Source: Verrucomicrobia subdivision 6 bacterium BACL9 MAG-120507-bin52 (GTDB lineage Bacteria > Verrucomicrobiota > Verrucomicrobiia > Methylacidiphilales > Verrucolacustridaceae). Taken from it: DNA of 40,179 nucleotides. Below the pieces are notes generated by a model. The model saw only the letters and a list, made by a program, of their open reading frames with translations. It searched no databases and was not told the DNA's origin. The stretch is from NCBI GenBank assembly GCA_001438005.1, contig LIBO01000001.1, positions 1 through 40,179 of the forward strand. Direction: 5' to 3'. This document shows, piece by piece, positions 28,157-29,075 of the stretch (position 1 is the first letter of the stretch; each line of letters begins with the position of its first letter). The position numbers and the translations under genes are program-made.

Positions 28157-28428
28157 GTCGTAGTCTAAAAAAAGGTGCTTTTATTGATGACCATTTGTTG
28201 GTCAAGGTGCAAAAAATCGGGTCTGGGGCGAAGAAGCCGATCAAGACCTGGTCGCGGCGCTCCATGATTTCGCCCGAATTTGTCGGCCACACTTTTCTCG
28301 TGCACAACGGGAAAGCATTCAACCCTGTTTTCGTAACTGAAAATATGGTGGGTCATCGGCTGGGGGAATTTTCACCAACTCGAATCTTTAAAAAGCACGG
28401 TGGGCACACCGAGAAGGTGACTAAATAA
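28153..28428 (+). CDS. rpsS: 30S ribosomal protein S19
   Basis: [28 protein letters not shown]. Confidence 0.99.
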
Positions 28429-29075
28429 TGAATTTCCTTCTGCTGCTTGGTTTCTTGGTCTCGGGAAACATGCTCTCGGCGGGAAAGTCGCTGCGACCCG
28501 ATGAGCTGTTGATGGCGCAAGCGGAGGCGAAAGCTTATCGCGCAGCCTGGCTCGAATTGCAGAGACGGGACGAGATTCTGGGGATCGCAGCTTTAAGTAA
28601 CGACGTGCGAGACAGTCATGACCAGATCGCCCGCCTTTCCGGGGAGCTGATCCGGGCGGAGCGCTTTGCGAAGGAACTGGCGGAGCAAACGAAAATAGTT
28701 TTGGACGCGGCGGCGAACTGGGCAGGGGAGCCGATTCCGGCGAAGAAGGCGGCTGCTCGAGCCGAGTTCGAATCGGCCAAACGTGCCCTGAGCGAACTGG
28801 CCAAGAATAATCAACCCCGCTCCCTCGCTCGCGGTTTGACCGACGCCCAAGTCGTGGCCGTGGATCGGGATCAGCAGGCTCTGGTTCTGAATTTGGGCCG
28901 AAGCCAAGGAGCGAAAGAGGGAATGCCGTTTCGAATTTTGAGAGGAGATAAGGTTTTGGGGACGTGTCGTTTGCTTGAGGTGCGGGAATTGATTTCGGCG
29001 GGGTTACCGGAGCAGTTGAATGATGGGGTACAAATTCAAGTGGGGGACCGTGTGTCGGTCTTGGCGCAAAAATGA
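28428..29075 (+). CDS. Uncharacterised, probably exported protein: signal-peptide-like N-terminus, coiled coil, C-terminal beta-rich domain (FlgT C-terminal-like)
   Basis: 215-aa ORF that fills the rpsS-rplV gap exactly, with TAATG and ATGA overlaps; hydrophobic [12 protein letters not shown]-terminal VLNLGRSQGAKEG...IQVGDRV pattern. Confidence 0.85.
   Translation: MNFLLLLGFLVSGNMLSAGKSLRPDELLMAQAEAKAYRAAWLELQRRDEILGIAALSNDVRDSHDQIARLSGELIRAERFAKELAEQTKIVLDAAANWAGEPIPAKKAAARAEFESAKRALSELAKNNQPRSLARGLTDAQVVAVDRDQQALVLNLGRSQGAKEGMPFRILRGDKVLGTCRLLEVRELISAGLPEQLNDGVQIQVGDRVSVLAQK

What the first reader, a model, noticed from the sequence alone, without database searches (positions are those of the whole stretch)
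28428..29075. Uncharacterised, probably exported protein inserted in the S10 operon between rpsS and rplV
Seen: a 215-aa ORF splits the normally adjacent rpsS and rplV. Its ATG shares a base with the rpsS stop (TAATG, 28426-30) and its TGA overlaps the rplV ATG (ATGA, 29072-75). It has a hydrophobic N-terminus, an Ala/Glu/Leu/Arg-rich helical middle and a beta-rich C-terminus (VVAVD..LVLNLG..QG.KEG..F.I.R...LG...L.EV...IQVGDRV). I see no IS ends or target-site duplication. Known: rplB-rpsS-rplV-rpsC order is highly conserved in bacteria. Inference: this is a fixed, translationally coupled envelope protein made in step with ribosomes, which could tie envelope growth or division to growth rate. 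The FlgT C-terminal-like resemblance is from memory only.
Basis: partly seen in the sequence, partly recalled or inferred. Interest (0 to 1): 0.8.

Follow-up and report, generated by a model that had tools for sequence, protein, structure and literature searches.

The report
Exported protein gene inside S10 operon
A real, ancient gene sits between ribosomal genes S19 and L22 in many but not all Verrucomicrobiota; its product is likely an exported envelope protein, and in Akkermansia it is transcribed like its ribosomal neighbours yet found at only about 3% of their protein level.

Summary
Observation confirmed. The 215-aa ORF (X) is intact, under purifying selection (dN/dS 0.04-0.21) and spanned by an independent contig. 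Homologues lie directly upstream of rplV in Verrucomicrobiia, Kiritimatiellia and Lentisphaeria. In Lentisphaeria the operon is broken between rpsS and X, and X stays with rplV. X is not fixed: 16 of 38 named Verrucomicrobiota chosen by rpsS lack it, at least 10-13 losses are needed, and 0 of 32 other-phylum loci carry it. Predicted build: Sec-type signal peptide, long helices ending in a hairpin, six-stranded barrel closest to FlgT-C (Z 11.5). It is not flagellar and not a displaced MreC. A paralogue family Y has a membrane anchor, a long coiled coil and the same barrel. In published A. muciniphila data X (Amuc_0299, by position) tracks ribosomal mRNA but is about 3% of ribosomal-protein level; the Y pair is about tenfold more abundant. 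Best guess: a low-copy periplasmic docking subunit of an envelope scaffold, growth-linked by its operon position. Function is untested. The scan found this insertion before on other DNA (34 notes match the search words); my literature searches found no description.

The parts
28153..28428 (+). rpsS (uS19); its TAA shares one base with the ATG of X
28414..28420 (+). Shine-Dalgarno-like AAGGTGA in the rpsS tail, ahead of X
   Evidence: sequence; duplex energy about -10 kcal/mol against a generic, recalled anti-SD in 16 of 18 same-genus loci, -9.1 and -6.1 in the other two
28428..29075 (+). gene X, 215 aa, uncharacterised family (A. muciniphila orthologue by position: Amuc_0299)
28428..28481 (+). 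predicted Sec/SPI-type signal peptide (about aa 1-18), no lipobox
   Evidence: hydropathy survey of 37 orthologues, least conserved part of alignments A1/A2; cleavage site judged by eye, SignalP not available
28497..28808 (+). predicted helical region aa 24-127; helices 58-100 and 104-127 align to helical hairpins
   Evidence: AlphaFold2 model, mean pLDDT 87; VIA matches over model residues 60-130
28836..29066 (+). predicted six-stranded beta-barrel aa 137-213, FlgT-C / F1-crown / MreC-barrel type; holds the invariant G157, G165, R186, G206
29072..29488 (+). rplV (uL22); ATG overlaps the TGA of X, no SD upstream in this genus

Best explanation
Gene X is an ancient passenger of the S10 operon whose product is likely exported by Sec to the periplasm, where it would act as a low-copy docking subunit of an envelope scaffold, likely binding through its small beta-barrel to the abundant membrane-anchored coiled-coil paralogues (family Y). 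Shown: the gene, its position, purifying selection, vertical descent with repeated loss, and (published A. muciniphila data) co-transcription and translation at about 3% of ribosomal-protein level. Predicted: signal peptide, helical hairpin and barrel fold; Y as one long helix behind a membrane anchor. Inferred: periplasmic location, barrel-mediated assembly, partnership with Y, and that the operon position serves to tie supply to growth rate while translation signals set the amount.
For: All 37 aligned orthologues start with a short hydrophobic segment and have no second strongly hydrophobic stretch; 11 Y proteins have a longer, more hydrophobic anchor. Best fold match is FlgT-C, Z 11.5, 1.7 A over 74 aa, 26% identity; next are the ring-forming F1/V1/T3SS-ATPase crown barrels, HerA and MreC. 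PMC4446572 (passages) notes that FlgT-C, the F1 beta N-domain and periplasmic-adaptor barrels share this topology. X and Y barrels are homologous (hhalign 96%, E 3e-9) and fall on two sides of one weakly supported branch (79/78). A Y protein models as a continuous helix over residues 3-160; its barrel was not well modelled from a single sequence. In A. muciniphila the Y pair (Amuc_1229/1230 by position) has iBAQ 72-999 million, the two within twofold of each other; X has 10-35 million, the range of FtsZ. X mRNA falls with its neighbours from mid to end phase (log2FC 2.07; L22 2.05, S19 2.59, S3 1.76), and LFQ correlates with S19 (Spearman 0.90, n=14). Opitutales-type X keeps only signal peptide plus barrel (123 aa), so the barrel is the core.
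Against: No direct evidence of binding, location or phenotype. X and Y genes are never neighbours, and Y neighbourhoods are not conserved (11 loci). Their mRNAs move in opposite directions in one comparison (A_mid vs D: X +1.9, Y -2.4 and -2.0). Y is kept where X is lost (Methylacidiphilum-type genomes), so X is dispensable to Y. Several genomes have no match to either (58 of 201). A shared small barrel shows no function, and Z 7-9 matches are common. iBAQ of an exported protein may undercount.
Confidence: 0.38

Rival explanations
1. X is an exported protein with a role unrelated to Y or to envelope architecture; it merely hitchhikes on strong, growth-linked S10 transcription.
For: Many independent losses; protein far below ribosomal stoichiometry; no conserved neighbours other than ribosomal genes; X and Y mRNAs diverge in one condition. 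Ribosomal operons are known to carry non-ribosomal passengers (secY, map; recalled, and present in this window).
Against: The position upstream of rplV is kept across three classes and through an operon break, and no enzymatic or ligand-binding fold was found.
Confidence: 0.27
2. X works like MreC: a coiled-coil plus barrel accessory that tunes peptidoglycan synthesis or division to growth rate.
For: Profile hit to a solved MreC across coiled coil and first barrel (E 0.0068); Z 8.5 to MreC; FtsZ-like abundance; the one genome of 80 without an MreC match is an Akkermansia that has X.
Against: A separate MreC is present in 79 of 80 genomes. X has one barrel and a likely cleaved signal, where MreC has two barrels and an anchor (recalled). 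No X member passes PF04085.
Confidence: 0.15
3. X is a TsaP- or FlgT-like collar protein that rings one of the outer-membrane secretins (type IV pilus or type II secretion).
For: Top solved-structure profile hit is TsaP (E 0.0056); FlgT-C is the best fold match; all 44 X-bearing genomes tested have a secretin, and the 3 of 80 without one lack X.
Against: 33 of 36 genomes lacking X at the junction keep secretins. No X or Y locus examined was recognised as a pilus cluster (ORFs read by eye, not scanned). FlgI is found in only 5 of 44 X-bearing genomes. X has no LysM domain.
Confidence: 0.13
4. X is a SecM/VemP-like export monitor: its translation gates the SD-less rplV and so the downstream genes that end in secY.
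For: Signal peptide; always directly upstream of rplV, even after the Lentisphaeria break; in this genus rplV lacks an SD and overlaps the X stop in 20 of 20 loci.
Against: The C-terminus is the last barrel strand (GDxV), with no RAPP/RAGP-like arrest motif in 37 aligned members (motifs recalled). In A. muciniphila-type loci rplV has its own SD and a 38-nt spacer. The hairpin over the rplV start is not significant (mean z -0.95).
Confidence: 0.05
5. Misassembly, mobile element or non-coding filler.
For: No family, name or solved relative by sequence.
Against: Independent contig spans the region; same junction in many families; dN/dS 0.04-0.21; orthologue detected in 14 of 14 proteome samples.
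Confidence: 0.01

Closest known systems
FlgT C-terminal domain (Pfam PF16538; PDB 3w1e, 8z5n LPHT ring)
   Same: Six-stranded barrel, Z 11.5, 1.7 A, 74 residues, 26% identity; 7 of 37 members hit PF16538 weakly, best E 0.0038; both exported.
   Different: X has helices in place of FlgT's N and middle domains; most carriers lack flagella; gene sits in the S10 operon.
MreC (PF04085)
   Same: N-terminal hydrophobic segment, coiled coil, then a related barrel.
   Different: One barrel, likely cleaved signal; true MreC is encoded elsewhere in 79 of 80 genomes.
TsaP (type IVa pilus secretin collar, PDB 3jc8)
   Same: C-terminal barrel similarity (E 0.0056; Z 7.2, 28% identity).
   Different: No LysM domain; no co-loss with secretins.
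Periplasmic adaptor (membrane fusion) proteins
   Same: Helical hairpin plus a barrel of the same topology (PMC4446572 passage); a MacAB-TolC chain matches the hairpin at Z 7.2, a generic level.
   Different: No lipoyl or membrane-proximal domain, no transporter or TolC gene nearby.
Non-ribosomal passenger genes of ribosomal operons (secY, map, adk; recalled)
   Same: Co-transcribed with ribosomal genes, non-ribosomal function, sub-stoichiometric protein.
   Different: Those lie in the spc/alpha part; X splits rpsS-rplV inside S10, is phylum-restricted and unnamed.

Membership tests
FlgT | FlgT_C-type six-stranded barrel | tested here: met
   Z 11.5 / 1.7 A; Foldseek E 3.5e-5
FlgT | PF16538 above its curated cut-off | tested here: not met
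   P0001 no hit; best of 37 members E 0.0038
FlgT | FlgT_N and FlgT_M domains | tested here: not met
   the rest of X is predicted all-helical; no such Pfam hit among the families shown
FlgT | co-occurs with the flagellar P ring | tested here: not met
   FlgI in 5 of 44 X-bearing and 8 of 36 X-lacking genomes
MreC | PF04085 above cut-off, two barrels | tested here: not met
MreC | is the genome's MreC, in the mreBCD locus | tested here: not met
   separate MreC at G000:C37 and in 79 of 80 genomes
MreC | binds and activates PBP2 | not testable with these tools
   needs experiment
TsaP | N-terminal LysM domain | tested here: not met
TsaP | rings a secretin | tested here: inconclusive
   secretins near-universal, 77 of 80; binding not tested
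Periplasmic adaptor protein | hairpin, lipoyl and barrel domains with a cognate transporter gene | tested here: not met
   no lipoyl domain in the model; neighbours are ribosomal genes
Sec-exported (SPI) protein | n-region, short h-region, small-residue cleavage site, no lipobox | tested here: met
   simple hydropathy and motif survey, 37 members, 2 with a lipobox-like motif; SignalP itself not run
Arrest-peptide export monitor (SecM, VemP) | C-terminal arrest motif | tested here: not met
   inspection of alignment A2 for recalled motifs; unknown motifs not excluded
Insertion sequence or mobile gene | transposase, terminal repeats, target duplication | tested here: not met

The most novel reading that the evidence does not exclude
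X and Y are parts of an undescribed, phylum-wide envelope skeleton of Verrucomicrobiota. Abundant membrane-anchored coiled coils span the periplasm and are capped or nucleated by a soluble paralogue, whose gene has been wired into the S10 operon since the phylum's ancestor so that envelope scaffold assembly is metered by ribosome synthesis. In this genus L22 translation itself depends on translating it.
Probability: 0.15. Interest if true: 0.85.

Novelty: new variant of a known kind. Interest (0 to 1): 0.52.

Why it matters
It is an ancient exception to one of the most stable bacterial gene pairs and a usable marker of Verrucomicrobiota history, including a Lentisphaeria break at the same junction. 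It points to an unnamed envelope protein family (X and Y), two members of which are abundant in Akkermansia muciniphila, a gut symbiont with genetic tools. That makes it directly testable whether envelope building is linked to ribosome synthesis through gene order.

Tried and rejected
Pfam, NCBIfam and PDB sequence searches with P0001: nothing significant. Low rplB identities were my own frame error, corrected. Search for fused forms found none, but covered only proteins of 596-2000 aa, so this is weak. Homodimer prediction of mature X: no answer, score 0.12, controls not folded; neither for nor against. Single-sequence model of a Y protein left the barrel unreliable, so no fold search was run on it. 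A locus scan with alignment A2 was not possible. ESM Atlas: 30 unnamed Verrucomicrobiota clusters; nearest named FlgT_C clusters at 0.80-0.82, leads only. Synonymous-site constraint in X in this genus: none seen, four-fold identity 0.31-0.48 per window, 0.38 overall, 11 genes. Codon adaptation: X at the 89th percentile of 834 background ORFs and within the ribosomal range, but bias is weak in this genome. One sigma-70-like site at 28401-28429 is at chance level. The middle of X is uncovered in two RNA runs; this proves nothing. The Akkermansia transposon paper (Davey 2023) is not held, so essentiality is open. Amuc_0299 was not found in the main text of PMC4960237 nor in 12 of 18 supplement files of PMC13335810. 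Chlamydiota and Planctomycetota were not sampled.

Full report
Observation. Window 28428-29075 encodes an intact 215-aa protein (P0001, here X) between rpsS (28153-28428) and rplV (29072-29488), with the TAATG and ATGA overlaps as described. It has no Pfam, NCBIfam or PDB sequence match and no mobile-element ends. One of two DNA runs laid has a single contig over the whole region, and RNA-library contigs bridge both junctions. dN/dS is 0.04-0.21 in the 18 of 120 pairs with usable dS.

Range. X itself matched 38 of 41 relatives. Of the 30 loci fetched, 24 show both rpsS and rplV flanking it, and 6 end at a contig edge with one neighbour. A 37-member profile (A2) matched 143 of 201 phylum genomes, a count that mixes X with a paralogue. 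I therefore located rpsS and rplV independently in 80 genomes that I chose with a bias toward weak or no X hits (78 had both). I then tabulated 84 loci: 24 picked because they carry X and 60 from that survey. 34 have a gap over 300 nt and all 34 hold X; 30 have adjacent genes and no X; 20 have rpsS and rplV far apart or on different contigs. Of those 20, 11 have X within 260 nt upstream of rplV and one more about 450 nt upstream. Names attached to L22 proteins identify the main split group as Lentisphaeria; what follows rpsS there is unrelated DNA in 5 of 5 loci read. A sample picked by rpsS alone, with NCBI names (best 80 of 597), gave: Verrucomicrobiota 22 of 38 with X and 16 adjacent; Kiritimatiellota 1 of 3; Lentisphaerota 6 of 6 without rplV downstream (one contig short); other phyla 0 of 32 with X (24 adjacent, 8 where my rplV query found nothing); one unclassified, adjacent.

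History. On an L22+S3+L16 tree of the 84 genomes X occurs in all three classes. A single gain needs 20 losses, or at least 10-13 after collapsing weak branches; unconstrained parsimony needs 15 changes. The barrel tree (62 rows, 88 columns, many forks unresolved) recovers Lentisphaeria (99/88), the short Opitutales-type form (100/100) and this genus (100/98) as groups, and separates X from Y weakly (79/78). This fits one insertion in the phylum ancestor, vertical descent and repeated loss. 'Loss' here means absent from the junction.

Protein anatomy. All 37 aligned orthologues begin with a short hydrophobic segment, mostly after basic residues; 2 have a lipobox-like motif. AlphaFold2 (pLDDT 87, pTM 0.59) gives helices 24-50, 58-100, 104-127 and a barrel at 137-213. 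The best structural match is FlgT-C (Z 11.5, 1.7 A, 74 aa), then ATPase crown barrels (Z 8.8-9.6), HerA, MreC (8.5) and TsaP (7.2). The invariant residues G157, G165, R186, G206 all lie in the barrel, and Opitutales-type copies are only signal peptide plus barrel. X is not flagellar (FlgI in 5 of 44 carriers), not a displaced MreC (79 of 80 genomes have one) and not co-lost with secretins.

Paralogue family Y. G000 has one other protein with this barrel, on contig C312. Across the phylum such proteins have a longer hydrophobic anchor, a long coiled coil and the same barrel, sometimes as a tandem pair, with variable neighbours. One models as a single helix of about 160 residues. Methylacidiphilum-type genomes keep Y but lack X.

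Expression. From supplement rows of PMC11480725 (I saw only those rows): Amuc_0298 is L22 and Amuc_0300 is S19, so Amuc_0299 is X by position; A. muciniphila-named proteins occupy this junction. I did not see the Amuc_0299 sequence itself. Its mRNA changes like its neighbours' (log2FC 2.07 against 2.05, 2.59 and 1.76), and per length it is about as abundant, using approximate lengths. The protein is detected in 14 of 14 samples at a median 2.9% (1.9-4.2%) of four ribosomal proteins, and falls 2.6-, 1.4- and 2.6-fold from mid to end phase. The Y pair (Amuc_1229/1230, by position between dnaX and radC) is roughly tenfold more abundant, and FtsZ is at X's level. In 8 of 13 Akkermansia-genus loci rplV has an SD-like site (-4.2 to -5.9); X has none or a weak one (at best -3.1) in all 13. 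That offers a simple cause for low X, though turnover or loss to the medium could contribute. In the window's genus the pattern is reversed: strong SD for X, none for rplV, and an ATGA overlap in 20 of 20 loci. So coupling, and a higher X level, are plausible here but unmeasured. Overlaps are common in this compact operon (7 of 19 other junctions).

Mechanism. The most likely reading (0.38) is a Sec-exported, soluble, low-copy member of a barrel-tipped coiled-coil family that docks onto an envelope scaffold, probably with Y, and uses the S10 transcript for growth-linked supply. The steps from fold to partnership are inference: this barrel type builds rings or docking surfaces in FlgT, F1, HerA and adaptors (partly recalled; PMC4446572 passage). 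Against it, X and Y are unlinked and not always co-regulated. Rivals are a functionally unrelated hitchhiker (0.27), an MreC-like accessory (0.15), a secretin collar (0.13) and an export monitor gating L22 (0.05).

Prior knowledge. Full-text searches found no description of the insertion or of Amuc_0299, 1229 or 1230 (search listings only); subscription papers and unseen supplements, notably Davey 2023, may bear on this. Of PMC4960237 I saw one supplement row, one text part and search passages; of PMC12418764 only reference passages. The scan's own notes hold 34 findings with my search words; the 8 shown describe this insertion in other genomes. I read them after forming my view. They agree on fold and location; several say 'every relative examined', which my position surveys contradict at phylum level. 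A word search for the Lentisphaeria split found none.

Verdict. Real, ancient, uncharacterised and testable; a new variant of the passenger-gene theme with an unnamed envelope protein family behind it. Interest 0.52.

Noticed in passing
L060-L074, L133-L152 (Lentisphaeria-type genomes): The S10 operon is split exactly after rpsS; X (when kept) or rplV starts the second half. In complete chromosomes the halves lie 0.7-1.3 Mb apart (G046, G201, G109).
   Followed up: yes
L142, L143, L148 (family f39): A second group with rpsS and rplV on different contigs and no X falls outside Lentisphaeria on the tree: possibly an independent break at the same junction.
   Followed up: partly
G000:C312:2-970; L080:5878-7514; L085:6532-8325; L086:6261-8255: Family Y: membrane anchor, long coiled coil, same barrel, sometimes a tandem pair; abundant in A. 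muciniphila, unnamed or annotated as 'Smc'.
   Followed up: partly
L058:1471-1842 (-), L059, L100, L102, L103, L107, L111: Opitutales-type X is cut down to signal peptide plus barrel (about 123 aa).
   Followed up: partly
G117: This complete Akkermansia genome has no PF04085 (MreC) match, the only one of 80; 'MreC' is also absent from the A. muciniphila omics tables.
   Followed up: no
G033, G132, G171 (family f10): The only 3 of 80 genomes without a secretin match.
   Followed up: no
window 34462-34465: rpsE overlaps rplO directly, so rpmD (L30) is missing from the spc operon here.
   Followed up: no
window 32308-32493: Short 61-aa S14 with only one cysteine left of the zinc-ribbon positions; its start overlaps rplE by 26 nt.
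   Followed up: no
window 37820-38431: The ORF at the rpsK position has a long Lys/Pro/Gly-rich N-terminal extension (about 200 aa in all).
   Followed up: no
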